Source: Clostridia bacterium
Lineage (GTDB): Bacteria > Bacillota > Clostridia > TANB77 > CAG-508
DNA length: 64,000 nucleotides
NCBI GenBank assembly: GCA_017410505.1
Contig: JAFQQR010000027.1
Span: forward strand, 31,461-95,460
Reading direction: 5' to 3'
Part shown: piece by piece, positions 16,188 to 52,145 of the stretch
Layout of the letters: each line of letters starts with the position of its first letter
Position numbering within the stretch: the stretch's first letter is position 1
Notes under the pieces: model-generated
What the model saw: the letters and a program-made list of their open reading frames with translations, nothing else
What the model was told of the DNA's origin: nothing
Databases searched by the model: none
Made by a program: the position numbers and the translations under genes

Positions 16188-16272
16188 TGGTGCGGATGAA
16201 GGGACTCGAACCCCCACGCCGTTGGCACTGGTTCCTAAGACCAGCGCGTCTACCAGTTCCGCCACATCCGCA
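16188..16272 (-). tRNA. tRNA-Leu, anticodon UAG, with a long variable arm and encoded CCA
   Basis: The reverse complement reads GCGGATGTGGCGGAACTGGTAGACGCGCTGGTCTTAGGAACCAGTGCCAACGGCGTGGGGGTTCGAGTCCCTTCATCCGCACCA. The anticodon loop is CTTAGGA. A TTGACA-N18-TATTAT promoter lies just upstream at 16279-16321. Confidence 0.85.
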
Positions 16273-18117: not shown

Positions 18118-19704
18118 TCACTTTTTGCAGGAAACAATTTTAGATGGTTTTTTTTCAAATTTATAATATATATGAATATAATTTTCATACACTTCTATTT
18201 TATCAATCAATTCACTTATGTCTTCATTAGATAGAATATCTTTATTTAGATTTTTTAAGATTTCTTTAACTTTCTTTATTTTCGCTATATTTTCATTACT
18301 ATTCAATTTTTCTTTTTCATTCTCTAAATTTTTTATAATTTCTCTTATGTCTTTTCTTTTTTGAGTTAATTCTTTATATAACTTTTTATAATTTTCTTCT
18401 AAAATGCTTTCTTGTAGTCTATCATTATATAGTTTTGTAATTTTGAATCTTAATAAGCCTAATTCTTTATTTAATTCTTTTAATTGAATATTTATTTTTT
18501 TAACTTCTATATCATTATATTTTTTCATAAGACTCGTATTTAAATTACTCTTTTTTAAGAATTTAGCAAATTCCTTTTCTATATCTTTAATAATTAAACT
18601 TTCTAAATCTTCATATTTATATAAGATATTATTTGAACATAAATATGAAGATTCATTTCTGGAAGGACAATGAACATTTATAAAATTTCTTGACTTTCTT
18701 TTTGCCATCCTTTTTTTACACTTACCACAATACATATATTTGGAAAATTTAGCATCTATCCCTTCTTTTCCACTAGCTGTTTTTCCAAATTTATTGTTAT
18801 CATGAATTTTATTATAAATTTCTTCAGTGATAATAGGTTCATGTGTCTTTTCAGTCGTTATTTGTTCACTTCTTTTTACATAAATTCTTTTTTTACTTTT
18901 ATAACTAATATTTTGTGTTTTTCCTCTCAGACATTTTCCTGTATATACTTCATTAGCTAATATTCTTGTAATTATTGATCTTGTCCAGACTTTTTTTGTC
19001 CTATTTTCTAGTCCTTTTACTTTTAAGTATTCTGCTGGAGTAATAATTTCTTCTTTATTAAATAAATCTGCTATTTGTTTTGCTGTTTTTCCTTCTAATG
19101 TTAATTTAAAAATTCTTTTGACATTTATACTAGCTACTTCGTCTATAATTAATTTTCCTTGATTATCTGGATCTTTCATGTAACCATATGGAGCTACATT
19201 ACAACTATAATATCCATCAAGCATCTTCTTTCTTTTACTTCTTTTGACTCCCTTAGATGTTTCTTTACAAAATAATTCATTAAAAACACCTTTTATTGGT
19301 GCAAATTCATTTGCTATTTTATCTTCAAAATTGTCTACTCCGTCTAAAATAGCAATATATCTAATATTATTGTTAGGAAATAATTTTTCTATATATTCTC
19401 CCGCTTCAATATAATTTCTTGCAAATCTAGCTAAGTTTTTTGTAATTACTAAATCTATTTCATTTATTTTTAATTCTTGAATCATTTTTTTAAAACCTGG
19501 TCTATCAAATGTAGCTCCTGAAACTCCATCATCTACATATTCATAATATTTTTCATAATTAAAATTCTTTTTTATATAGTCGAGGATAATTGCTCTTTGA
19601 TTAGAAATGCTTTCACTTTCTTCAGTATCACCATCATCTTTACTTAGTCTTAAATATATTGCAACATTACGAACTGATGACTTTTCTAGTCTTTGGATTA
19701 TCAT
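18118..19704 (-). CDS. Large serine recombinase (resolvase N-terminal domain plus recombinase, zinc-ribbon and coiled-coil regions)
   Basis: VAIYLRLSKDDGDTEESESISNQR...YVDDGVSGATFDRPGFKKM...VITKNLARFARN is the catalytic serine region. 528 aa. It stops 55 bp from the dac junction. Confidence 0.9.
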   Translation of the reverse strand: MIIQRLEKSSVRNVAIYLRLSKDDGDTEESESISNQRAIILDYIKKNFNYEKYYEYVDDGVSGATFDRPGFKKMIQELKINEIDLVITKNLARFARNYIEAGEYIEKLFPNNNIRYIAILDGVDNFEDKIANEFAPIKGVFNELFCKETSKGVKRSKRKKMLDGYYSCNVAPYGYMKDPDNQGKLIIDEVASINVKRIFKLTLEGKTAKQIADLFNKEEIITPAEYLKVKGLENRTKKVWTRSIITRILANEVYTGKCLRGKTQNISYKSKKRIYVKRSEQITTEKTHEPIITEEIYNKIHDNNKFGKTASGKEGIDAKFSKYMYCGKCKKRMAKRKSRNFINVHCPSRNESSYLCSNNILYKYEDLESLIIKDIEKEFAKFLKKSNLNTSLMKKYNDIEVKKINIQLKELNKELGLLRFKITKLYNDRLQESILEENYKKLYKELTQKRKDIREIIKNLENEKEKLNSNENIAKIKKVKEILKNLNKDILSNEDISELIDKIEVYENYIHIYYKFEKKPSKIVSCKK

Positions 19705-19711
19705 AATTGAA

Positions 19712-21325
19712 CTATCCTCCTATACAATTTAACTCATAAAAATTAAAGTGAATTAGTACATTTTTATCCTTATCTATTTCAATTTTATTAACTAATTGTT
19801 GTACATCTTCTTTTTTTAGCTCATTTTTATTAGCTATCTTTTCAATTACATTTTGTATTTTATCTTCCATTTTTTTATCATCATATTTTTTATCAAATTC
19901 TTTGATTTCTTCTTGTGTAATTTCTTTTAATTTTTCTAGTTTATGTCTTTCTTTTATCATATTTTCTGAAAAACATATATAATCTTGTTCTTCTATTAAT
20001 CCGCCCAATTTATCATTATATAATGTAGAAATCTTTTTGTTTAAAATATTTAATTGAGTATTGATTTGTTCTATCTTTTCTTCTAATTTCCCTTTGTTAT
20101 TTTGAGATTTTATCAAATTCTCTAATAAGTGTTTATTATTAAAAACATTTGACGTTATATATTCTCTAAATATATTTGATATTTTATTTAATATTTTTTC
20201 CTCCAATCTATCATAATTCACATATTGTCTATAACATATTTTGTTAGTTACTTCTCTTGTTGCTGTACTACAAATAATATATCTTCTAATTGTTACTTTA
20301 TCTTTGTATTTGTCTTTCTTTTTAACAATTTGTAGCTTATTCTGACAATGATAACAATATAGTAACGATTTTAGTAATGGATCTTCTTCTTTTATTTTTT
20401 CTCCTATATATTTTTTAAACAAGGATTGAACCATATTCCATGTTTCTATATCAATAATGGCTGGATGATGATTTTCAGTAATAGTATGTTGGCTTTCAGG
20501 TAATGTAATCATTTTCTTGCTTTTATAACTAATCTTTTTTCTTTTATTTTGAACAACTGTACCTATATATATTGGATTTGTTAAAATTCTTTTTATTGTT
20601 GTATGTCTCCAAATATTAGTAGTATTTGTTATATTGTTTACTACTCCTGTCATGTTCATGGATAAACCTGGCGTAACTACTTTTTCTTTGTTTAATAATT
20701 GTGCAATTTGATATGTTCCTTTTCCTCCAATAAACTCTTTAAATATTTTCCTTACTATATCTGCAGTCACTTCATTAATCTTTAGATTCCCTGCTTTATC
20801 TATTTTTGTATATCCAAATGGTGCATAACTTGTATAATAGAAGCCTTCTTGTTTTTTTCTATTTTTAGTTTTTTTTATGTTTTTAGATGTTTCTTTAGCA
20901 TAAAAATCATTCATTATATTTTTAAACGCAACTGTATCACAGTTCTTATCCAAATATGTATCCACATCATCTAATATCGCAATGTAACGAATTTCGTTTT
21001 CTGGAAAAAATGTTTCAATATATCTCCCTGTTTCTATGTAATCTCTTCCTAATCTTGCAAGGTTTTTTGTGATTACCATATTTACTTTTCTAGTTTCTAT
21101 ATCTTTAATCATTCTTTTGAAATTTGGTCTATTAAAATTAGTTCCACTATATCCATCATCAATATATTCATCATAAATGTTGTAATTATTTTCTTTCACA
21201 AATTCTTTTAATATTTTTCTTTGATTCGTTATACTTTCACTTTCCTCCTTATCTCCATCATCTTTACTTAATCTCATGTATAAAGCTACCGTATAACTTT
21301 TATTATCAAAGTTACTCGCTTCCAA
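19712..21325 (-). CDS. Large serine recombinase, second tandem copy
   Basis: VALYMRLSKDDGDKEESESITNQR...YIDDGYSGTNFNRPNFKRM...VITKNLARLGRDY. 537 aa. Confidence 0.9.
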   Translation of the reverse strand: MEASNFDNKSYTVALYMRLSKDDGDKEESESITNQRKILKEFVKENNYNIYDEYIDDGYSGTNFNRPNFKRMIKDIETRKVNMVITKNLARLGRDYIETGRYIETFFPENEIRYIAILDDVDTYLDKNCDTVAFKNIMNDFYAKETSKNIKKTKNRKKQEGFYYTSYAPFGYTKIDKAGNLKINEVTADIVRKIFKEFIGGKGTYQIAQLLNKEKVVTPGLSMNMTGVVNNITNTTNIWRHTTIKRILTNPIYIGTVVQNKRKKISYKSKKMITLPESQHTITENHHPAIIDIETWNMVQSLFKKYIGEKIKEEDPLLKSLLYCYHCQNKLQIVKKKDKYKDKVTIRRYIICSTATREVTNKICYRQYVNYDRLEEKILNKISNIFREYITSNVFNNKHLLENLIKSQNNKGKLEEKIEQINTQLNILNKKISTLYNDKLGGLIEEQDYICFSENMIKERHKLEKLKEITQEEIKEFDKKYDDKKMEDKIQNVIEKIANKNELKKEDVQQLVNKIEIDKDKNVLIHFNFYELNCIGG

Positions 21326-34541: not shown

Positions 34542-37220
34542 TTATTTTTCAAGTCTTTCCATTACTTTTTGAAGCATTTCTCTATATTTTTCTAATTTAT
34601 CTTTTTCCTCTTGAATTTTCTTTTCAGGTGCTTTGTTTACAAATCCTGGATTTGAAAGCATTTTTTCACATCTTGCAACTTCAGCTTCTAATTTAGTTTT
34701 TTCTTCTTCTAGTCTTTTTCTTTCTTCTTCCATATCAACTAAATCTTCAAGCGGCATATATAGTTCAATTCCATCTTGCATTATAGCTATGCTGTTTTCT
34801 GCTATTCCTGTTTTATCTTTTTGAACTCTTATTGATGTTCCAAATCCTAGTTTTAATAAGAATTCTTGTGCTTCTAAAATTTCTTTTTCATATTTTTCAG
34901 TTACAAATATTAATTCTGATTTTTTAGATGGATGTATATTCATATTTGCTCTTATATTTCTTATTTCAACTATTATTTGTTTTATTTTTTCAACTGTTTG
35001 TTCTTCTATTTCAAATACAAATTCTTTTCTTATTCTTGGCCATTTTGAAACCATTAAATCTTCATCTTTATATTTTACTAATTTATCAAAAATTTCAGAT
35101 GTTACAAATGGCATAAATGGATGTAATAATTTTAACGATGTTTCAAATACATGGTTTAATATGTCACTTACTGCTATTTTTGTTTCTTCATTTTCACTAT
35201 ATATTCTTGATTTTACCATTTCTATATACCAATCACAGAATTCATTCCAAATAAATCCGTATATTTTATCAATAGCAATTCCTAAATCATAGTTTTCTAT
35301 ATTTTTTGTTACATCTGCTACTAATTTGTCTAATTTATTTAAAATCCATTTATCTTCCAATGTTAGATATTCTGGGTTGTATGAATGTGTTTCATGGTTA
35401 TATACTTTATGACAGAATTCTTTTACTTTTTCTTCATCTGGTGTATTCATTATTATGAATTTAGCTGCATTCCAAATTTTATTTGCAAAGTTTGATGCTT
35501 GGTCTAGTTTTTCTGGCATGTATCTTATATCATTTCCCATTGTTGTTCCTGATAATACAGAAAATCTTAATGCATCTGCTCCATATTGGTCGATTATTTC
35601 TATTGGGTCAATTCCATTTCCTAATGATTTTGACATTTTTCTTCCTTGTGAGTCTCTTACTATTCCATGTACTACGACATCTTTAAATGGATTTTGATTT
35701 GTTAATTCTAATCCTTGTGTCATCATTCTTGAAATCCAGAATGTTATAATATCATATCCTGTAACTAATGCGTTTGTTGGATAGAATGTTTTATAATCTT
35801 CATTTTCTTCGTTTGGCCAACCAAGTGTTGAGAATGGCCATAATGCTGAACTGAACCATGTATCTAATGAATCTTCATCTTGGTGTAATTTATTAGAACC
35901 ACATTTTTCACATTTTTCTGGCATCTGTTTTGCTGCATGCATATGTCCACATTCATCACAATAGTAAATTGGAATTCTGTGTCCCCACCATAATTGTCTT
36001 GATATACACCAATCTTGAATATTATCTAACCAGTTGAAGTACATTTTTTCATATCTTTTTGGTACAAATTTTACTTCATCGTTTCTAACTGAGTCTGCTG
36101 CTCTTTTTGCTAAATCTTTCATACTTACAAACCATTGCTCAGAAATTCTTGGTTCTATTGTATTATGACATCTATAGCATTTTCCAACATTATGAGTATA
36201 GTCCTCTGTTTTTACTAATGCTCCTATTTCTTCTAGTTTTTTAACTATTTCTTTTCTTGCATCTATTGATTTCATTCCTTTATATTCTGGAACTAAATCT
36301 CCCATTATTGAACTGTCATTAAATACTTCTATAATTTCTAAATTGTTTCTTAATCCAGCTTGATAATCATTTGGGTCATGTGCTGGTGTAATTTTTACAC
36401 ATCCTGTTCCAAATTCTTTTTCTACAAAGTCATCTGCAATTATTGGAATTTCTTTATTCATAATTGGAAGTATACATTTTTTTCCTATTATATCTTTATA
36501 TCTTTCATCATCTGGATGTACTGCAACAGCTGTATCTCCAAGCATTGTTTCTGGTCTTGTTGTTGCAACAATTATATATTTATCTGTATCTTTTATTTGA
36601 TATCTTATATGCCATAAATGTGAAGCTTCATCTTCATACTCAACTTCTGCATCTGATATTGTTGTGTGACATGATGGACACCAGTTTATCATTTTTTTAC
36701 CTTTATAAATTAGATCTTTATTATATAAACTAATAAATTGTTCTAATACTGCTTCAGATAAACCTTCATCCATAGTAAATCTATTTCTTTCCCAATCACA
36801 AGAACATCCAAGTCTTCTTTGTTGTTTTTGAATAGTTCCACCATATTCCTTAGTCCAAGCCCAAGCTCTATCTAAAAACTCTTCTCTTGTAATATCAGCT
36901 TTTGTTAAGCCTTCTTCCTTTTTCATCTTTTCAACAACTTTTACTTCTGTTGCAATAGCAGCATGGTCTGAACCTGGAAGCCATAAAGTATTATAACCTT
37001 GCATTCTTTTAAATCTTATTAAAATATCTTGTATTGTACCATCTAAAGCATGTCCCATGTGTAATTTACCTGTTACATTTGGTGGTGGCATCATTATACA
37101 ATAACTTTCTTTTGTTTTGTCCATACTTGGTTTAAAGTATCCTTTTTCTTCCCAGTCTTGATATAGCTTTTCTTCAAAATCCTTTGGGTTGTATTTGTCA
37201 TTTAATATTTTATCTTTCAT
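34542..37220 (-). CDS. valS: Valine--tRNA ligase
   Basis: HIGH (PNVTGKLHMGHAL), KMSKS (KMSKSLGN), the editing domain and the C-terminal coiled coil are all present. The true start MKDKILNDKYNPKDFEEKLYQDWEEKGYF has a GAGGAGG RBS. Confidence 0.95.
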   Translation of the reverse strand: MKDKILNDKYNPKDFEEKLYQDWEEKGYFKPSMDKTKESYCIMMPPPNVTGKLHMGHALDGTIQDILIRFKRMQGYNTLWLPGSDHAAIATEVKVVEKMKKEEGLTKADITREEFLDRAWAWTKEYGGTIQKQQRRLGCSCDWERNRFTMDEGLSEAVLEQFISLYNKDLIYKGKKMINWCPSCHTTISDAEVEYEDEASHLWHIRYQIKDTDKYIIVATTRPETMLGDTAVAVHPDDERYKDIIGKKCILPIMNKEIPIIADDFVEKEFGTGCVKITPAHDPNDYQAGLRNNLEIIEVFNDSSIMGDLVPEYKGMKSIDARKEIVKKLEEIGALVKTEDYTHNVGKCYRCHNTIEPRISEQWFVSMKDLAKRAADSVRNDEVKFVPKRYEKMYFNWLDNIQDWCISRQLWWGHRIPIYYCDECGHMHAAKQMPEKCEKCGSNKLHQDEDSLDTWFSSALWPFSTLGWPNEENEDYKTFYPTNALVTGYDIITFWISRMMTQGLELTNQNPFKDVVVHGIVRDSQGRKMSKSLGNGIDPIEIIDQYGADALRFSVLSGTTMGNDIRYMPEKLDQASNFANKIWNAAKFIIMNTPDEEKVKEFCHKVYNHETHSYNPEYLTLEDKWILNKLDKLVADVTKNIENYDLGIAIDKIYGFIWNEFCDWYIEMVKSRIYSENEETKIAVSDILNHVFETSLKLLHPFMPFVTSEIFDKLVKYKDEDLMVSKWPRIRKEFVFEIEEQTVEKIKQIIVEIRNIRANMNIHPSKKSELIFVTEKYEKEILEAQEFLLKLGFGTSIRVQKDKTGIAENSIAIMQDGIELYMPLEDLVDMEEERKRLEEEKTKLEAEVARCEKMLSNPGFVNKAPEKKIQEEKDKLEKYREMLQKVMERLEK

Positions 37221-37237
37221 AATCTTTATCCTCCTCT

Positions 37238-37519
37238 TGTCCATTTGGGACGTTTCTTTTTGGACAAAAATGTCCATTTGGGCCAGATGTTGTGTCCTTT
37301 TGAATACCATATTTTCCTTTTTGTTCTTTTGTTAATTCTTCTCGTTTACTTAATTCATAATTTAATAATTCATCTTCTAGTCTTTCTCTTAATGTCATAA
37401 ATCGTAGTGCTTCTTTAAATAAATTTTTCATTTATACCTCCTTTGTCCATCTTGTCCGTCTGGGATGTTTCTGTTCTTTTGGGTACGTATCTATTTGGGA
37501 CATGTCCCAGAATGGACAT
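37238..37519. repeat. MITE-like element with terminal inverted repeats of the TGTCCAWWTGGGACGTTTC family, inserted between the valS T-box terminator and the valS RBS
   Basis: The left end TGTCCATTTGGGACGTTTCTTTTTGGACAAAAATGTCCATTTGG closely matches the uvrA-copy TIR. The right end carries the inverted copies GGGACATGTCCCAGAATGGACAT. Confidence 0.5.
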
Positions 37520-44364: not shown

Positions 44365-44572
44365 ATGTCCAAATGGGACGTTTCTAAATGAACAAAAATG
44401 TCCATTTGGAAACGTTCTTTTGAGATATTATACTATATTTTTTTATTTAAAACAAGAGTTTGGTAAATATTTCTTCTCTTTATTGAATATAAACCATATC
44501 CTAGAATTTAAATACAAAAGATCGGTTCTTTTTGGACATTTTTGTCCATTTAGAAACGTCCCATTTGGACAT
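44365..44572. repeat. MITE-like element of ~208 bp with perfect 20-bp TIRs (ATGTCCAAATGGGACGTTTC / GAAACGTCCCATTTGGACAT), extending to ~40 bp with 1 mismatch
   Basis: Read from the sequence. The left TIR abuts the uvrA RBS. There is an internal subterminal direct copy TGTCCATTTGGAAACGTTC. Confidence 0.6.
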
Positions 44573-44646: not shown

Positions 44647-47259
44647 TTATTCTTTAATGCCCATCTTATTCACAATAGCCTTGCGAATAAGATCAATAGG
44701 AATAATCATAAAGGCAATGAGAATAGCTACAATCCAATTACTAAGTGTTAATGGAGTTGTTCCAAACACTTTACCTCCGAATTGGATAATGATAATCTGA
44801 AAAGCAGCTACTGCAAGCATTACTATAATAAAGTTGTGATTTTCATGAATATGTTCAAACAGATTCATGCTTTCAGTTCTTGCATTAAGAGAATTCCACA
44901 AGATTGCTAATATGAAGGTTGCAAACATGAAAGTTCTTATAACACTAATATCGGTACTTCCTATTATATTGTAAATACCGAATATGTTTTTCAAGATACC
45001 AAGACAAATGATTGTGATGAATACACCTCCAACCAGAATTGCACTTTTGAGATATTTGTTAAGAATATCAGCAGTACGTGCTACAGGCTTTTCTCTCATG
45101 TAACTTTCTCTTGCCGGTTCTTGTCCGAATGCAATGGCAGCTAATGTATCCATAATCATATTAATCCAAAGAATCTGTATGATAGTAAATACTTCGGTCC
45201 AACCAAGAATAGGTCCAAGCACCGCTGTAAAGACTGTACTTACATTGACAGTCAACTGGAAGATAATAAACTTCTTTACTGATTTACTCATAGTACGCCC
45301 ATACATAATTGCATCTGCAATAGAAGTTAAACTATCATTAAGAATAATAATATCTCCTGCTTCCTTTGCAACTTCTGTTCCTGACCCCATAGCGAACCCA
45401 ACATCAGCTTTATGTAGAGCTGACGCATCATTTACACCATCACCAGTCATACCTACTACTTCTCCAATTGATTTGCTTATCTCAACAAGTCTTTCTTTGT
45501 CAGAAGGAACTGCTCTTGCAACCACCTTTAAATTAGGTAATGCTTTGATGAGTTCTTTATCAGACATTCTTGCTAGTTCTTCATGAGTTATGCAAAGATC
45601 TGTCGGTTTAGTAATGAGACCTGCTTCTCTTGCAATAGCCTTAGCTGTAGCCAAGACATCGCCAGTTACCATTGTTACATTGACACCTGCATTCAACATT
45701 TTTTTAACAGAATCCTTAACATCTTTACGTACATCATCTCTGATAGAAATCAAAGCTACAAAAGTTTTCTCATTGGCACTTTCTTTTACAATAGCAATAA
45801 CTCTCATTGCTCGTTCGGTCTGTGCATCCCAAGTTTCTTTCAATTTACTCTGGATTTCACTTGTCAAAGTCTGCTTATCACCGTTTTTGTCAATATAACT
45901 AGTACATTCATTCATAATGATGTCAGGAGCACCTTTCATGTACTTAACACCATCTGGCATAGTAACAGACGCGTATTTTACTTTTGAATCAAAAGGTTCT
46001 GAACTTTCAATTACACTCTTATCAATATTAACGCCATTTTCAATGGCAAGATAAGTAATCAAAGCACGGTCAGTATCATTTGAACCAATGGCTTTTCCAT
46101 CGCCACTAATTGTAGCGTCATTATTTACTCCTGCACCAATAATAATATCTTCCCGTACTGAATCACAAATGTTATCAAAATCTTCATAAACGGTAGAATC
46201 ACCTGTAATAACATTTGCAACCGTCATTTTACCATTTGTTAAAGTACCAGTTTTGTCAGTAAAAATATGAGTCAAATATCCAGCCGTTTCTATAGCCTTG
46301 GGATTTTTTACATAGATATGTGCTTTAAGCATTTTGCCTACATTTAACCCCTGTACCAAAGTATTCATTAACGGCAATCCTTCGGGAACAGCCATAACAA
46401 TAATAGAAACACCTAATACAAGACTACTTAGAATCAAGTATGCAATGTTGCCAACTGTATAATGAGACATATTGATAATTCCTAAAATCAGATGAATAAC
46501 TGCTGCTGCAGCACCACCACAATATCCAAAGGTACCAATATTTTTAGCAAGTTTGTCTAACTTCTCTTCAGAAGGTGTTTTGCTTTCATCTTTCTCCTGC
46601 AAAGATACATTGATTGTACCCAATACAGTGTTGTCACCAACATCGGTAACCTGCATAATTGCTGAACCAGAAGTAACCACACTTCCACGGAAACATTTGA
46701 ATTTTGTGAACAAATCGTCATTGCTTGGAACAGGATTGTCTCCAAGAACAATCTTCTCCGCTTCTCGGCTTTCTCCATTAAGAGCTGCCTGATCAACTTT
46801 AAGAGAACCATCAATCAAGATGCCATCCGCTGGTATCTTATCTCCAGGTTGCAAGAATACACAATCCTCACAAACAATATCATTAATTGATAATTCAATA
46901 AGCTGTCCATCACGATAAACCTTGACTTTAATCTGACTTGCCTCACGTTGGAGTGCTTGAGCACCACGATCTTGCTTGTAGTTAATATAAGTACTAATAA
47001 AAGAAACTGCAATAATAACGATAAAAATCGCTACTGCACTGAACCAGTCATCAGAACCCATATCGGGCCAAATACGACCAATGACATAGAATACTACTTC
47101 AAGTGCCAGAGCTACCATCAGGATTTTCAACCAAGTGTCCTGAAGCGACTCCTTGAGCATATCCCAAAAGCTCTCTCTTTCTCGTTGTGTAAGTTCATTA
47201 GAACCTTTTGCTTTGTTAGCAATTGCTTGCTGCGTTGTTAAACCAATAGTTTTCTTCAT
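44647..47259 (-). CDS. Calcium-translocating P-type ATPase (PMCA/SERCA-like, type IIA/B)
   Basis: DKTGTLT phosphorylation site (FTDKTGTLTNGKMTV), TGDGVNDASAL hinge, 10 TM segments. 870 aa. Confidence 0.9.
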   Translation of the reverse strand: MKKTIGLTTQQAIANKAKGSNELTQRERESFWDMLKESLQDTWLKILMVALALEVVFYVIGRIWPDMGSDDWFSAVAIFIVIIAVSFISTYINYKQDRGAQALQREASQIKVKVYRDGQLIELSINDIVCEDCVFLQPGDKIPADGILIDGSLKVDQAALNGESREAEKIVLGDNPVPSNDDLFTKFKCFRGSVVTSGSAIMQVTDVGDNTVLGTINVSLQEKDESKTPSEEKLDKLAKNIGTFGYCGGAAAAVIHLILGIINMSHYTVGNIAYLILSSLVLGVSIIVMAVPEGLPLMNTLVQGLNVGKMLKAHIYVKNPKAIETAGYLTHIFTDKTGTLTNGKMTVANVITGDSTVYEDFDNICDSVREDIIIGAGVNNDATISGDGKAIGSNDTDRALITYLAIENGVNIDKSVIESSEPFDSKVKYASVTMPDGVKYMKGAPDIIMNECTSYIDKNGDKQTLTSEIQSKLKETWDAQTERAMRVIAIVKESANEKTFVALISIRDDVRKDVKDSVKKMLNAGVNVTMVTGDVLATAKAIAREAGLITKPTDLCITHEELARMSDKELIKALPNLKVVARAVPSDKERLVEISKSIGEVVGMTGDGVNDASALHKADVGFAMGSGTEVAKEAGDIIILNDSLTSIADAIMYGRTMSKSVKKFIIFQLTVNVSTVFTAVLGPILGWTEVFTIIQILWINMIMDTLAAIAFGQEPARESYMREKPVARTADILNKYLKSAILVGGVFITIICLGILKNIFGIYNIIGSTDISVIRTFMFATFILAILWNSLNARTESMNLFEHIHENHNFIIVMLAVAAFQIIIIQFGGKVFGTTPLTLSNWIVAILIAFMIIPIDLIRKAIVNKMGIKE

Positions 47260-47516
47260 AAAGAACCTCCTTAAATTGTTGACTTTTTATATTGGTTTTC
47301 AGTTACTTAAAAATTAGCTCTACATATCATATCCTCCTTACCTTTCTATTCAATTGTTAATGTACAACATGTATATTAATTGATATCGTATCATCAATTA
47401 ATATACTAAATTATACGAACAGTTTTCACTTTGTTGCACATACATTTCTGCAACTTTTGTAAAAATTTCGCACGTTTAGTATTATAACACGGTACATTTT
47501 TTATGTCAATCTTTTT

Positions 47517-47742
47517 CAGTTTTTTGTAAAATCTGCATTACATCTCAGCATAAATACATATATATTAAAATTCCGTTCCTTGCTGGTCGGACTAATCATA
47601 TGAGCAGAATATAGGTATGTCAAAGTTTGAATAGTTAATCTGGGTGGTCTGTATGTTTTTGTGTCATTCCAAACTGCGCGTCACTGCATTTTAATATATA
47701 TGTATTTATGCTGAGATGTAACGCAGATTTTACAAGAAACTG
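47517..47742. repeat. 55-bp near-perfect inverted repeats (47517-47571 and 47688-47742, 2 mismatches) flanking a 116-bp core; inverton-like or MITE-like
   Basis: Left arm CAGTTTTTTGTAAAATCTGCATTACATCTCAGCATAAATACATATATATTAAAAT. Right arm ATTTTAATATATATGTATTTATGCTGAGATGTAACGCAGATTTTACAAGAAACTG. Confidence 0.6.
47595..47623 (-). promoter_or_regulatory. Consensus sigma-A promoter TTGACA-N17-TATGAT inside the IR-flanked core, currently oriented toward the P-type ATPase gene
   Basis: On the minus strand, TTGACA sits at 47623-47618 and TATGAT at 47600-47595, with a 17-nt spacer. Confidence 0.45.
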
Positions 47743-48012
47743 AAACTTAAATTTTCGTTTTTTAATCATCTCGCTTTACTTTTTATGTAAATTATAATAT
47801 AATATCCTAGCATACCGGTATTTTTAACATTATAAAAAAATTTTATAATGAATGGAGTAATTATTTTTATCGGTAGATAATTAAAATAGTTTCTCTAGCA
47901 AACAAAATTATCCTCAGCAATTGCAAGGTTAAATTTTGTTATTCTTAAGAAAAAACTATTTTTGTAACAATAATTTCATACTTAAATAACATCAAGAAAG
48001 GAAAATATCATT

Positions 48013-49068
48013 ATGGATTATCGGACTATCAACAATTATGCAGCAAATATTATCAGAGCATTTGATAAAAATTCTGGAAAAGAAGTTTTACAGTACGCAG
48101 TAGGAGCTTTGCTTTATATGCCTGGAACCAATACTAAGATTTCAAAAAAAATCCTCAAAAAGGAAAATCCAAATATTAAATCTTTGGTGCTTTGTTTGGA
48201 AGATTCTATTGGTGATAGCATTGTTGAACAAGCTGAGGAATGTGTAAAAAATACACTTATCGAAATTCACACTGCAATTACTACTGGGCGATTTTCCATT
48301 TCTGATTTACCATTAATTTTTATCCGGGTACGGGAAATCGGACAAATGACACGACTTGTTGACAAATGTGGAGATAGCATTTCTACAATCACAGGCTTTG
48401 TTCTTCCAAAATTCAATAAAATTAATGCTTCAAATTATATAAATGAATTTGAGCAGATTTTGGATTCGGTAGATACTTCGTTATATTTAATGCCTATTAT
48501 TGAAAGCAGAGATATAATGCATAAGCCTACTCGTTTAGAGAATTTGTGTTATATTCACAATGCACTTAAAAAGATTTCAGACCGTACTCTTTGTATCCGT
48601 GTAGGTGGAACTGATTTTTGCAATATCTTTGGAATCAGACGTCCTATAAATTCAACAATTTGGGATATTAGAGTTATTTCTGATTGTATTTCTGACATCA
48701 TTAATATTTTTGGCACAGATTATGTCGTTTCTGGACCAACATGGGAATTTTTTGAAAAGAAAGACTCCCCTAGTCAAACCGATTGGGTTGAAGGATTAAA
48801 TAAAGAACTTTTCTATGATAGACTCAATGGCATTATAGGAAAAACTTGTATCCATCCCACTCAAGTGCCTTATGTTCAACAATCTTTGATTGTTTCTGAA
48901 ACAGACTACACTAATGCACTTCAAATATTAAGCATGTCATCTCAAAGTTTTGTTGGTGTAAAAAAAGGAACTAATGGTAACCAGATGAATGAATCCAAAA
49001 CTCATATAAATTGGGCGAAAAAGATTCTTGCATTATCTGGAATTTATGGTATTAAGAAAGAAATTTAG
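48013..49068 (+). CDS. HpcH/HpaI aldolase/citrate-lyase-like family protein of the Ter-associated biosynthetic module
   Basis: 351 aa. LCLEDSIGDS is a citrate-lyase-beta-like acidic motif. It sits in an operon with the PRTase, StiP-like and HAD genes beside terD/telA. Confidence 0.55.
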   Translation: MDYRTINNYAANIIRAFDKNSGKEVLQYAVGALLYMPGTNTKISKKILKKENPNIKSLVLCLEDSIGDSIVEQAEECVKNTLIEIHTAITTGRFSISDLPLIFIRVREIGQMTRLVDKCGDSISTITGFVLPKFNKINASNYINEFEQILDSVDTSLYLMPIIESRDIMHKPTRLENLCYIHNALKKISDRTLCIRVGGTDFCNIFGIRRPINSTIWDIRVISDCISDIINIFGTDYVVSGPTWEFFEKKDSPSQTDWVEGLNKELFYDRLNGIIGKTCIHPTQVPYVQQSLIVSETDYTNALQILSMSSQSFVGVKKGTNGNQMNESKTHINWAKKILALSGIYGIKKEI

Positions 49069-49081
49069 AGGAGATTTTATT

Positions 49082-50272
49082 ATGAAAAAAAACATCTTAG
49101 ACCTTAACAACTATGTTACTATTACTAAAAATAACAGTAACATTTATGAGCCTGCAGATATTGTGAATATTTGCAAACGGAGAAATAATCTCAAAAGAGA
49201 TTTTCTATTTGTAAATTCTTTACAAGGAAAACATCTTCATGTAGATCCATGCAAAATATTTGCACTATATGATGAATTAGTTAAATCAATTATCAAATCA
49301 ACAACTCAGAATGAAAAAGTCATTGTAGTTGGTTTTGCAGAAACTGCTACAGCAATAGGACATTACATTGCTAGTTCTCTATCAAATTGCATCTACTACA
49401 TGCAAACAACAAGAGAACAAATCCCTAATGCAACATCACTTCTTGAATTTAAAGAAGAACATTCTCATGCTATGGAACAGTTTTTATATGGAGATATTTC
49501 TGAGCTTACCAAATGCGACAAAATCATTTTTGTAGATGATGAGATTTCTACTGGTAATACAGTATTAAATTTTATTTCAGAAATCGAAAAAATTGGTATC
49601 CATGTAAAATATGGTGTAGCTTCACTTTTAAATTGGCAAAATGATGAATGGTCCGATAAGTTTGAGAAATTGAATATTGATACTTATTTTGTATTAAGAG
49701 GTAAATTGAAGGATTTGAATGTCAAAGTTCCAATTTCTGTTTCTGACGAAATGCATGTCTCTCCAAATATCATGGATTTTCCTAAAGTTCTTGTAGCAAG
49801 GAGCGATATTTCTAATTATTCTAAGGAAAGAATTGGCTCTAAGCCATATCCTCTTTCAGGATTTTCGGAAATTGTTTATTCTACAATAAGTTCTACATTA
49901 AATGACCATATGCCTATGGTAGGAGATGATGTATTAGTTTTAGGAACAGAAGAATATATGTTTACCCCGATGATTTTTGCAAAGGAATTGTGTGACAAAT
50001 TACATACTAATGTACAATTTCATGCAACTACAAGAAGTCCAATTGAAACAGCTGATAGGATTGATTATGCAATAAGAACTAGATATCCTATAACAAGTTG
50101 CTACGATTATACAAGAAAAACCTATATTTATAATCTTAGAAAATATGATAAAGTTTATATTATTACTGATGTCATTCCTAATTCTAATTTTATTATAGAT
50201 ATTTCTTCAGCTCTTGTTAATGCAGGATGTAAAATTCAAGACATAATTATTATAACAATGAAAGGATATTAA
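49082..50272 (+). CDS. Phosphoribosyltransferase-domain protein (Ter-associated PRTase)
   Basis: PRT motif IIFVDDEISTGNT. The start MKKNILDL has a GAGGAG RBS. Confidence 0.7.
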   Translation: MKKNILDLNNYVTITKNNSNIYEPADIVNICKRRNNLKRDFLFVNSLQGKHLHVDPCKIFALYDELVKSIIKSTTQNEKVIVVGFAETATAIGHYIASSLSNCIYYMQTTREQIPNATSLLEFKEEHSHAMEQFLYGDISELTKCDKIIFVDDEISTGNTVLNFISEIEKIGIHVKYGVASLLNWQNDEWSDKFEKLNIDTYFVLRGKLKDLNVKVPISVSDEMHVSPNIMDFPKVLVARSDISNYSKERIGSKPYPLSGFSEIVYSTISSTLNDHMPMVGDDVLVLGTEEYMFTPMIFAKELCDKLHTNVQFHATTRSPIETADRIDYAIRTRYPITSCYDYTRKTYIYNLRKYDKVYIITDVIPNSNFIIDISSALVNAGCKIQDIIIITMKGY

Positions 50273-50282
50273 GGTGATGTAT

Positions 50283-51377
50283 ATGAATTTAGTTAAAACC
50301 AGTTATCGGAGTGATGATGTAACCATACTTTTGAAAGATATCTCTGGTATTATTACTCCACTTTCGACAGAAGAAAGAGAAAAACTTAATCAAACAGGAG
50401 TACATTACTCAGAAATGTTACCATTAGAGTATAAACCTACTGAAAAGTACATGGAAATTTACAATGAGGCTTTACAAACACTTTCATATAAGACTGCAAA
50501 TGCTACAGCTATTCTTGCAAAAAAATTGTATGAAAAATATGGTAATAAGCTTGTACTTGTATCGCTTGCTCGTGCAGGTACTCCCATCGGAATACTTTTG
50601 AAAAGATTTATTCGATTCAAGTATAACATTGTAGTTCCTCACTATAGTATTTCTATTATTCGTGGCAAAGGCATTGATGTTAATGCTATAAATTATATTG
50701 TTGATCGACATGGTTCATACGGATTGCAGTTTGTTGATGGATGGATTGGAAAAGGTGCTATTAATGGAGTTCTCGTGGAAGCTTGTGAACTTTTGAAAAC
50801 TGAAAGTTTTAAATTTTCTTCACTTGATTCCACCCTTGCGGTTCTTTCCGATCCTGCTTTCATCACAGATTTGTGTGGAACTCATGAAGATTTCTTAATT
50901 CCTAGTGCTTGCCTTAATTCGACAGTTAGTGGACTAATTAGCAGAACTTTTTTAAGAAATGATATTATTGGTCCTAATGACTTTCATGGTGCAGTATATT
51001 ATGGTGAATTAGAACTTGAGGATAAATCTAACGAGTTTATTGATACTGTAAGTAATTATTTTGAAAAAATTAATTATGATTATTTTCAGGATAATTCTTC
51101 TATCATGCAGGATAGCAAAACCGGAATAGATGAAGTTAGAAACATTGCTAGGGACTTTGGAATACTTGATATTTCGAAAATTAAACCTGGCGTTGGCGAA
51201 ACAACAAGAGTTCTTCTTAGACGTGTTCCTTATTGTGTTCTTTTAAGAAACTTAGCAGATATGCAAAAGTTTCCTCATATTAAAAGACTTTGTGAAGAAA
51301 AAAATATTCCTATTAAGGAATATCCTTTGCAGATGTATAATGTATGTGGAATAATAAAAACTTTATCTGACATTTAA
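50283..51377 (+). CDS. Ter-cluster associated protein, cysteine protease StiP-like family (tentative)
   Basis: Conserved position between the PRTase and HAD genes in a Ter biosynthetic operon. ~365 aa. I cannot verify the family without a search. Confidence 0.45.
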   Translation: MNLVKTSYRSDDVTILLKDISGIITPLSTEEREKLNQTGVHYSEMLPLEYKPTEKYMEIYNEALQTLSYKTANATAILAKKLYEKYGNKLVLVSLARAGTPIGILLKRFIRFKYNIVVPHYSISIIRGKGIDVNAINYIVDRHGSYGLQFVDGWIGKGAINGVLVEACELLKTESFKFSSLDSTLAVLSDPAFITDLCGTHEDFLIPSACLNSTVSGLISRTFLRNDIIGPNDFHGAVYYGELELEDKSNEFIDTVSNYFEKINYDYFQDNSSIMQDSKTGIDEVRNIARDFGILDISKIKPGVGETTRVLLRRVPYCVLLRNLADMQKFPHIKRLCEEKNIPIKEYPLQMYNVCGIIKTLSDI

Positions 51378-51389
51378 AGAGGTGATTTA

Positions 51390-52145
51390 ATGATATTTGC
51401 AACAGACTTAGATAACACAATGATATTTTCACATAGATTGATAAGCGGTTATGAAGATAAAGTTTATTGTGTGGAATATTATAATGGAAAAGCTATTACT
51501 TACATGACTTATACAGCTATTGAGAAAATAAAAAATCTCATGAAGAAAATCCATGTAATTCCTATTACAACACGTTCTATTTCTCAATTTGAACGAATCG
51601 AAATTTTTTCATCAGCAACATATGCTGTTGTAGCTAATGGAGGAACAATATTGAAAAATGGCATTATTCATCCAGAATGGGAACAATACATTAATGGCAT
51701 CTTACACAAATATAATTTTGAAGATGTTATCAAAGTATTTTCTAATCTTCCTAATCTTACATTACAACCTAAAGTTGTGGATGGAAAATTTGTATTTGCA
51801 AAATCTGATGATATTAATTCATGCAAGCAGATTTTACAAAATAAATTAGATACAAAAATATGGCAATTATCGTTTCAGGGCGCAAAAATGTATGCTATTC
51901 CTATGGAAATTACCAAAGGAAATGCTTTAAAATTTATCAATGAAAAAATAATAAATGATAAGCAACCTGTAATTTCAGCAGGAGATAGTAATTTAGACTT
52001 ATCAATGTTGGAATATTCAGATTATAGTATTATTCCTTGGGGGTGCAATTTATCAAGCCCTAAATATCAAAACTTCATTGAATTAGGTAATAGTTTTCTA
52101 TCATCTGATGCAATATTAGATTTTGTTACTAACTTATCTGTTTAA
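51390..52145 (+). CDS. HAD-superfamily hydrolase (IIB-like), Ter-associated phosphatase
   Basis: N-terminal DxD motif IFATDLDNTM and C-terminal GDSNLD. Confidence 0.7.
   Translation: MIFATDLDNTMIFSHRLISGYEDKVYCVEYYNGKAITYMTYTAIEKIKNLMKKIHVIPITTRSISQFERIEIFSSATYAVVANGGTILKNGIIHPEWEQYINGILHKYNFEDVIKVFSNLPNLTLQPKVVDGKFVFAKSDDINSCKQILQNKLDTKIWQLSFQGAKMYAIPMEITKGNALKFINEKIINDKQPVISAGDSNLDLSMLEYSDYSIIPWGCNLSSPKYQNFIELGNSFLSSDAILDFVTNLSV

What the first reader, a model, noticed from the sequence alone, without database searches (positions are those of the whole stretch)
47517..47742. Inverton-like structure: 55-bp inverted repeats flanking a 116-bp core that contains a consensus promoter
Two 55-bp arms with only 2 mismatches flank a core. 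The core's minus strand reads TTGACA-N17-TATGAT, currently aimed at the Ca2+ P-type ATPase gene (start 47259). Inversion would point it at the divergent Ter-associated biosynthetic operon starting at 48013. This is the architecture of recombinase-driven phase-variable promoters, although the IRs are unusually long and no invertase is adjacent. It could instead be another MITE type or a bidirectional attenuator.
Basis: seen in the sequence. Interest (0 to 1): 0.65.

Follow-up and report, generated by a model that had tools for sequence, protein, structure and literature searches.

The report
Orphan MITE-like insertion carrying a promoter
A 232-base, non-coding insertion with long inverted ends and its own promoter sits between two conserved back-to-back promoters in an uncultured gut Clostridia genome; it looks like a small mobile-element insertion rather than a flip-flop genetic switch, and is of modest interest.

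Summary
Arms 47514-47571 and 47688-47745 are 58 nt long and match at 56 of 58 positions. They flank a 116-nt core whose minus strand carries TTGACA-17-TATGAT (47623..47595).

The inverton reading is not supported:
- Both neighbouring genes keep their own strong promoters outside the element: P_ATPase at 47509..47481 (12/12 plus TG) and P_ter at 47775..47803. Both are conserved in every related lineage that covers them.
- Nine related lineages (74-85% lyase identity) lack the element. In the eight whose promoter region was read, 21-30 nt (about 75 in one) lie between TATGTCAAT and the Ter -35 hexamer. Removing 47514-47745 plus one copy of a flanking CTT leaves 29 nt.
- All available assemblies of this organism show one orientation.
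- The arms are longer than the 10-40 nt usual for invertons.
- The window holds no invertase, only two large serine recombinases 26 kb away.

No second copy turned up in any collection, but this species is absent from the genome collection, so its copy number is unknown.

Best reading: a lineage-specific MITE-type insertion that adds an extra promoter reading toward the Ca-ATPase gene. A rare flip between the 58-bp arms is not excluded.

The parts
47511..47513 (.). CTT, left copy of a possible 3-bp target-site duplication
   Evidence: Read directly from the sequence. The same CTT follows the right arm. Chance of a 3-bp match at this composition is about 0.03 (my calculation).
47514..47571 (.). 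Left arm of the inverted repeat (58 nt, 21% G+C)
   Evidence: It matches the right arm at 56 of 58 positions, with mismatches at 47522 and 47537.
47572..47687 (.). Core, 116 nt, 42% G+C, non-coding, no excess RNA structure
   Evidence: composition; only chance ORFs of 35 and 44 aa; folding z = +1.9 and +1.4; no protein relative in any frame.
47595..47623 (-). Promoter-like site inside the core, TTGACA-17-TATGAT, reading out through the left arm toward the ATPase gene
   Evidence: 11 of 12 matches. P about 0.0015 in shuffled cores. By my reading of the coordinates, about 10 of the other 14 equally good sites in the window sit upstream of a gene on the same strand.
47688..47745 (.). Right arm of the inverted repeat (58 nt)
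47746..47748 (.). CTT, right copy of the possible target-site duplication
   Evidence: Read directly from the sequence.
47481..47509 (-). Native promoter of the ATPase gene, TTGACA-17-(TG)TATAAT, outside the element and 4 nt from the left arm
   Evidence: 12 of 12 with TG. Both hexamer regions are invariant in the 7-species alignment.
47775..47803 (+). Native promoter of the Ter-associated operon, TTTACT-17-TATAAT, outside the element
   Evidence: It aligns with TTGATT/TTGTTA...TGGTATAAT in the related species.
44647..47259 (-). P-type cation (Ca2+-type) ATPase gene, left neighbour
   Evidence: Pfam; the source names it a calcium-translocating P-type ATPase.
48013..52145 (+). Ter-associated operon: C-C lyase, PRTase-TRSP, StiP-PELOTA, HAD phosphatase; right neighbour
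   Evidence: Pfam.

Best explanation
This is a lineage-specific, non-coding 232-bp insertion of the MITE type, with 58-bp terminal inverted repeats and a flanking 3-bp direct repeat (CTT). It landed in the short spacer between the back-to-back promoters of a conserved divergent gene pair, a Ca-type P-type ATPase and a Ter-associated biosynthetic operon. Shown: the insertion pushes the two native -35 boxes from roughly 20-30 bp apart to about 265 bp apart. It replaces the DNA just upstream of both promoters. It also brings in a near-consensus sigma-70-type promoter. Inferred: that promoter fires out through the left arm, in tandem with and 114 bp upstream of the native ATPase promoter. This would add transcription of the ATPase gene that could bypass or interfere with native control. 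The element is most likely fixed in one orientation, not a dedicated switch.
For: Presence/absence: L002-L007 keep the ATPase-lyase arrangement and both promoters but have only a short spacer where the window has the element (spacers read). L016/L017 and L018 have the same short spacer. L019/L020 have a 526-nt intergenic region against 753 nt in the window. L007 has 521 nt, a difference of 232 nt, which is the element's length. Removing 47514-47745 plus one CTT leaves a 29-nt spacer, against 30 nt in L007. The repeat ends exactly at the CTT/CTT direct repeat. Size, inverted ends and direct repeat fit published MITE criteria of 50-800 bp, TIR of at least 10-15 bp and TSD of 2-10 bp (PMC11602168). 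There is no coding capacity or protein relative and no RNA-family match. The core is 42% G+C against 21% in the arms and 18-28% in the surrounding intergenic DNA, which suggests foreign origin. The promoter is unlikely to be chance. MITEs that carry sigma-70 promoters are documented, including Correia, MITEAba12 and others (PMC10969869). The window holds another, unrelated inverted-repeat family, so such repeats occur in this genome.
Against: No second copy was found anywhere. Searches covered the 64-kb window plus 4.7 kb beyond it, GTDB species representatives by exact 32-mer, JGI metagenomes by exact 20-mer, which gave three chance hits, IMG/VR, plasmids and phages, and a six-frame translation against 5.8 billion protein clusters. 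A Logan contig runs from the flank through the outer arm to 47567 without a break, which argues against other identical copies in that sample (inference). The 58-bp ends are longer than the ~10-50 bp usual for IS elements (PMC10969869). No transposase or parent IS is known. The 3-bp direct repeat alone is weak evidence (P about 0.03). Promoter activity is predicted from sequence only.
Confidence: 0.55

Rival explanations
1. It is a true inverton. A site-specific invertase encoded elsewhere in the genome flips the 116-bp core, pointing its promoter at either the ATPase gene or the Ter-associated operon.
For: Inverted repeats flank a short segment that holds a good promoter. The total size of 232 bp is in the usual inverton range; over 75% of invertons are under 300 bases (PMC11602134). 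Invertases can act in trans on scattered sites, as Mpi and RecV do (PMC5386303). Most of the genome could not be searched.
Against: Both genes keep conserved promoters outside the element, so a flip would only add or remove a second upstream promoter. The arms are 58 nt against the 10-40 nt described (PMC11892184). The ends coincide with a clean insertion and a direct repeat. One orientation is seen in all available assemblies. No small serine invertase or tyrosine recombinase is in the window. The only resemblance to the C. difficile flgB switch repeat is the 10-mer TTACAAAAAA, which occurs 5 times in the window against 2.3 expected. None of the related lineages has a switch here.
Confidence: 0.1
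2. It is a passive switch. The insertion is as in the best explanation, but the 58-bp near-identical arms allow occasional RecA-dependent inversion, so a minority of cells carry the promoter pointed at the Ter-associated operon.
For: The arms contain a 34-bp stretch of perfect identity (47538-47571 and its partner) within 58 bp at 96.6%. Inversion of promoter-bearing Correia elements has been reported as a possible route to phase variation (PMC10969869).
Against: Only one orientation is seen. Recombination between repeats this short is inefficient (general knowledge, not tested here). The two arm mismatches have not been homogenised.
Confidence: 0.1
3. It is not mobile. It is a lineage-specific piece of DNA acquired by illegitimate recombination or inverted duplication, and its paired arms serve as two identical protein-binding sites (about 174 bp centre to centre) that reshape control of the divergent promoters.
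For: It is an orphan with no relatives in any collection. It sits exactly in the shared control region of a conserved divergent gene pair.
Against: Neither arm aligns with the ancestral spacer of the related species, so a local inverted duplication is unsupported. No candidate binding protein or recurring arm motif is present in the window. The direct repeat at the ends fits transposition better.
Confidence: 0.15
4. It is a structured RNA element: a long hairpin RNA, a small RNA gene, or a terminator or attenuator.
For: The full element folds into a very stable hairpin on either strand (z about -12). On the plus strand, a T-rich run follows the right arm.
Against: Both native promoters point away from the element, and the internal promoter transcribes only one arm, so no known transcript contains both arms. 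No terminator-like site was found. The core folds no better than shuffled sequence. There is no Rfam match beyond a spurious plant microRNA-precursor hit at E = 0.06. It is not conserved in any relative.
Confidence: 0.05

Closest known systems
Promoter-bearing bacterial MITEs, for example Neisseria Correia elements (CREE) and MITEAba12
   Same: A small, non-coding, intergenic insertion with terminal inverted repeats and a short flanking direct repeat. It carries a sigma-70-type promoter that can read into the neighbouring gene and shows presence/absence between related genomes. Inversion of such elements has been reported (PMC10969869).
   Different: Those families are multi-copy (from 1-22 to hundreds per genome), have much shorter ends (26 bp in Correia, from memory) and have characteristic target duplications. 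Here only one copy is known, the ends are 58 bp, there is no sequence similarity to any known family, and no cognate transposase is known.
Invertible promoters (invertons): E. coli fimS, C. difficile flgB and cwpV switches, Bacteroides capsule promoters
   Same: Inverted repeats bracket a segment of 100-300 bp upstream of a gene, with a promoter inside (fimS, Bacteroides), in a gut Clostridia host.
   Different: Known switches have 9-40-bp repeats recognised by a dedicated invertase: 21 bp in flgB and cwpV (PMC5386303 and PMC2784873) and 10-40 nt in general (PMC11892184). Both orientations are seen, and the switch decides whether the gene is expressed. Here the repeats are 58 bp, one orientation is seen, no invertase is found, and both genes keep their own external promoters.
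Outward-facing or hybrid promoters created by insertion sequences
   Same: Inserted DNA supplies a promoter that reads out through its end into a neighbouring gene.
   Different: There is no transposase gene and the element is only 232 bp. The target gene already has a perfect consensus promoter.

Membership tests
Inverton (invertible promoter) | Inverted repeats flanking a short DNA segment (mostly under 300 bp) | tested here: met
   58-nt arms around a 116-nt core, 232 bp in all. Size range from PMC11602134.
Inverton (invertible promoter) | Short repeats (about 10-40 nt) carrying an invertase recognition motif | tested here: not met
   Arms are 58 nt against 10-40 nt (PMC11892184). The only similarity to the flgB switch repeat is a common 10-mer. 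No hit in that paper's held supplements.
Inverton (invertible promoter) | A promoter, or other orientation-dependent signal, inside the invertible segment | tested here: met
   TTGACA-17-TATGAT at 47623..47595, P about 0.0015 by chance. This is a sequence prediction only.
Inverton (invertible promoter) | Orientation decides expression of the flanking gene, which has no independent promoter downstream of the switch | tested here: not met
   Conserved native promoters lie outside the element on both sides, at 47509..47481 (-) and 47775..47803 (+).
Inverton (invertible promoter) | A site-specific invertase (small serine or tyrosine recombinase), nearby or in trans | tested here: inconclusive
   Pfam scans of 47 of the 53 long ORFs found none of that type. 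The only recombinases are two large serine recombinases at 18118-21325, 26 kb away. The rest of the genome is not available.
Inverton (invertible promoter) | Both orientations present in populations or strains | tested here: inconclusive
   All assembled copies have the same orientation. Assemblies report only the majority form, and reads could not be mapped.
MITE (miniature inverted-repeat transposable element) | Small (50-800 bp), non-coding, intergenic | tested here: met
   232 bp with only chance ORFs and no protein relatives. Criteria from PMC11602168.
MITE (miniature inverted-repeat transposable element) | Terminal inverted repeats of at least 10-15 bp | tested here: met
   58 bp, 56 of 58 matching, at the very ends of the inserted DNA.
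MITE (miniature inverted-repeat transposable element) | Target-site duplication of 2-10 bp | tested here: met
   CTT at 47511-47513 and 47746-47748, directly abutting the repeat ends. This is weak on its own, with chance about 0.03.
MITE (miniature inverted-repeat transposable element) | Insertion polymorphism: empty sites in related genomes | tested here: met
   Absent from nine related lineages. Eight of them show a short spacer between the two promoters; the ninth has an intergenic region about 230 nt shorter than the window's.
MITE (miniature inverted-repeat transposable element) | Several copies in the genome or in related genomes | tested here: inconclusive
   One copy in 68.7 kb of this organism and none in any public collection searched. 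The species is not in the genome collection (best lyase match 83%), so its genome could not be scanned.
MITE (miniature inverted-repeat transposable element) | A full-length insertion sequence with matching ends that supplies the transposase | not testable with these tools
   No transposase is in the window, and the rest of the genome is unavailable.
Intrinsic terminator or attenuator | A G+C-rich stem followed by a U run, inside a transcribed region | tested here: not met
   No terminator-like site in 47200-48100, and both native promoters point away from the element.

The most novel reading that the evidence does not exclude
The element is a working flip-flop. A promoter cassette delivered by a mobile insertion inverts between its unusually long 58-bp arms, either through a trans-acting recombinase or through host homologous recombination. 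This would shift an extra strong promoter between a Ca2+ pump gene and a Ter-type stress operon that are otherwise co-controlled from back-to-back promoters. It would be a newly born switch caught just after its origin.
Probability: 0.12. Interest if true: 0.55.

Novelty: new member of a known kind. Interest (0 to 1): 0.25.

Why it matters
It is a clear, datable case of a small insertion rewiring the shared control region of a conserved divergent gene pair (a Ca2+ pump and a Ter-associated operon) in an uncultured gut Clostridia lineage. It is also a caution for sequence-only inverton calling: inverted repeats around a good promoter are not enough. Comparison with related genomes showed native promoters outside the element and an empty site in every relative. 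If reads did show flipping, the locus would illustrate how a mobile-element insertion can give rise to a phase-variable promoter.

Tried and rejected
1. Other copies. I searched the window, GTDB representatives by 32-mer, JGI metagenomes by 20-mer, IMG/VR with four patterns, and plasmids and phages by blastn. The JGI hits L008-L010 are chance matches; L008 shares 25 nt and L010 is a CRISPR spacer sharing 18 of 36 nt. The IMG/VR hit L015 lies inside a phage coding region.
2. A six-frame translation of the element against 5.8 billion protein clusters, to catch ORFs called over other copies, gave nothing.
3. Closer relatives with an empty or inverted site. The lyase and ATPase 90% clusters hold only this organism, and the nearest lyase is 85% identical, so exact insertion boundaries rest on relatives at 74-85%.
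4. Walking further along this organism's contigs gained only 4.7 kb.
5. Resemblance to C. difficile RecV switch repeats was recalled from memory and checked in PMC5386303. Only a common 10-mer is shared, so it was rejected.
6. Rfam gave no real match. The core has no excess RNA structure.
7. The Logan contig break at 47567 is not a sign of inversion. It falls exactly where a k = 31 graph must branch, because the arms are identical from 47538 onward (k = 31 is from memory).
8. Local inverted duplication as the origin: the arms do not align with the ancestral spacer.

Full report
**Observation**

The region was read directly and scanned for repeats. An inverted repeat is present.
- The tool reports arms 47514-47591 and 47668-47745 (78 nt, 86%).
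- BLAST of the element against the window shows the meaningful part is 47514-47571 and 47688-47745, 58 nt at 96.6%. The inner 20 nt of the 78-nt call are close to random.
The repeat only extends three bases further out on each side.
- A 47-nt arm probe matched only these two places with up to 3 mismatches, and none of 100 shuffles gave a match.
- The whole stretch folds about 12 standard deviations better than shuffles on either strand.
- The minus-strand promoter-like site TTGACA-17-TATGAT is at 47623..47595.
- In 20,000 shuffles of the core, a match of 11 of 12 or better appeared in 0.15%.
- The window has 14 other sites that good. By my reading of their coordinates, about ten sit upstream of a gene on the same strand, so such matches here are mostly real promoters.

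**Surroundings**

The host is an uncultured Clostridia MAG with 28% G+C.
- On the left is a P-type cation ATPase (44647-47259, minus strand). Its source names it calcium-translocating.
- On the right is an operon encoding a C-C lyase, PRTase-TRSP, StiP-PELOTA and a HAD phosphatase. It is followed by TelA and two TerD genes on the other strand.
  - A perfect TTGACA-17-TATAAT with an extended -10 TG lies on the minus strand at 47509..47481, four bases from the left arm.
  - TTTACT-17-TATAAT lies on the plus strand at 47775..47803.

**Comparison with relatives**

This was the decisive step. The organism itself is rare.
- Its lyase and ATPase each form a single-member 90% cluster.
- Its species is absent from the genome collection, where the best lyase match is 83%. 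The nearest lyase in the protein collection is 85% identical.
- Independent ENA and Logan assemblies of the same organism are identical or differ by one base over 14-22 kb. All have the core in the same orientation.

Nine related lineages were sampled, and none has the element.
- They are L002-L007, L016/L017, L018 and L019/L020, at 74-85% lyase identity.
- Their intergenic regions are 520-526 nt where measured (L007, L018, L019/L020), against 753 nt in the window. The difference from L007 is 232 nt, exactly the element's length.
- L002-L007 and L018 keep the ATPase-lyase arrangement.
- In the alignment, both native promoters are conserved (TTTATGTCAAT and TATTATA are invariant).
- In the sister sequences only 21-30 nt, about 75 in L006, lie between TATGTCAAT and the Ter -35 hexamer. 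The window has the whole element there.
- Taking out 47514-47745 and one copy of the flanking CTT leaves a 29-nt spacer, against 30 nt in L007.
- The repeat stops exactly at a direct repeat, CTT at 47511-47513 and 47746-47748. The chance of this at the local composition is about 0.03 (my calculation).

The element is therefore a clean, lineage-specific insertion between two back-to-back promoters.

**What it is not**
- It encodes nothing. Only chance ORFs of 35 and 44 aa are present, and a six-frame translation has no relative among 5.8 billion protein clusters.
- It matches no RNA family, and the core alone folds no better than shuffles.
- It cannot act as an attenuator or terminator for the neighbours. 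Both native promoters point away from it, and no terminator-like site is found.

**Tests of the inverton reading**

In favour:
- Inverted repeats surround a good promoter, and the total size is typical (over 75% of invertons are under 300 bases; PMC11602134).

Against:
- Invertons are described as having 10-40-nt repeats (PMC11892184), with 21 bp in the C. difficile flgB and cwpV switches. Here the arms are 58 nt.
- I recalled a resemblance to the flgB repeat AAGTTRCTATWTTACAAAAAA and checked it in PMC5386303. Only TTACAAAAAA is shared, and that 10-mer occurs five times in the window against 2.3 expected.
- Flipping would not turn either gene on or off, because each keeps its own conserved promoter outside the element.
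- Only one orientation is seen in the assemblies.
- Pfam scans of 47 of the 53 long ORFs found no small serine invertase and no tyrosine recombinase. They found only two tandem large serine recombinases at 18118-21325, beside a tRNA gene and 26 kb away. These look like the integrases of an integrated element.
- A Logan contig ends at 47567, but that is not a sign of inversion. The arms are identical from 47538 to 47571, so a k = 31 assembly graph must branch exactly there (k = 31 is from memory).

**Tests of the MITE reading**

Met:
- Size, lack of coding capacity, terminal inverted repeats, a short flanking direct repeat and empty sites in relatives all fit published criteria of 50-800 bp, TIR of at least 10-15 bp and TSD of 2-10 bp (PMC11602168).
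- The core is 42% G+C against 21% in the arms and 18-28% in the neighbouring intergenic DNA, which fits imported DNA.
- Promoter-bearing MITEs are well documented, including Correia, MITEAba12 and others. Inversion of Correia elements has been reported (PMC10969869).

Not met or untestable:
- No second copy was found in 68.7 kb of this organism or in any collection.
- The same Logan contig runs unbroken from the flank through the outer arm, which argues against other identical copies in that sample (inference).
- The rest of this genome could not be reached, so copy number and a parent insertion sequence remain open.
- The 58-bp ends are longer than the ~10-50 bp usual for insertion sequences.

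**Most likely mechanism**

Shown:
- A 232-bp insertion separates the -35 boxes of the two native promoters by about 265 bp instead of roughly 20-30 bp.
- It replaces the DNA immediately upstream of both promoters.
- It contains a near-consensus promoter oriented toward the ATPase gene.

Inferred:
- That promoter is active and reads through the left arm and the native ATPase promoter.
- This gives a longer ATPase transcript that adds to, or interferes with, native control.
- Splitting the shared control region may loosen co-regulation of the Ca2+ pump and the Ter-associated operon.

I put this reading at about 0.55. The rivals are:
- a trans-invertase inverton (0.10);
- occasional RecA-dependent flipping between the 58-bp arms, which is compatible with the same origin (0.10);
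- a non-mobile acquired regulatory repeat (0.15);
- a structured RNA (0.05).

**Verdict**

Novelty is low: a new, orphan member of a known kind. Interest is modest. Read mapping to both orientations and a search of the full MAG for further copies would settle the open points.

Noticed in passing
window 47803-48012 (+), stems 47813-47819/47869-47875 and 47884-47892/47953-47961 enclosing hairpin 47901-47918/47923-47940: The roughly 210-nt leader of the Ter-associated operon is conserved across seven species. RNAalifold predicts a long stem-loop in which 12 pairs keep pairing through changes on both sides, followed by TTTTTG, which looks like a terminator. It has no Rfam match, so it is a candidate attenuator or riboswitch for the lyase-PRTase-StiP-HAD operon.
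   Followed up: partly
window 44365-44422 / 44515-44572, and 37238-37281: A second, unrelated inverted-repeat family is built on TGTCCAAATGGGACGTTTC-like units, with 6 matches against 0.02 expected. It forms 58-nt arms (88%) between the uvrA start and the ATPase stop, and a related copy sits just upstream of the long ORF 34542-37310, which is called a tRNA-synthetase (Val_tRNA-synt_C) gene in L011.
   Followed up: partly
window 18118-19704 and 19712-21325 (-), tRNA at 16191-16271 (-): Two tandem large serine recombinases (Resolvase + Recombinase + Zn ribbon) lie beside a tRNA gene. Genes for WYL, DUF2779 and DnaB-like proteins follow at 22-34 kb. This is probably an integrated mobile element.
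   Followed up: no
window 47371-47406: A perfect 14-nt palindrome, GTATATTAATTGAT-N8-ATCAATTAATATAC, lies in the roughly 220-nt ATPase leader. It is partly conserved in L007, L002 and L006 and absent from L003-L005. It may be an operator. Other blocks of the leader are conserved in all seven species.
   Followed up: no
window 47666: The only base difference between the window and the ERZ28653904 contig over 14 kb (A versus C) falls inside the element's core. This could be chance or relaxed constraint.
   Followed up: partly
L016 1-160 and L017 1-100: In the 84%-identity lineage, the sequence beyond the ATPase promoter differs from the ATPase leader of the other relatives, and both contigs end there. 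This suggests a different rearrangement or insertion at that locus.
   Followed up: no
L010 1840-2140: A JGI metagenome contig that matched the arm 20-mer is a CRISPR array with the repeat ATTATAAAACATCATATGTTATATTCAAAC. One spacer shares 18 of its 36 nt with the arm, which I judged to be chance.
   Followed up: partly
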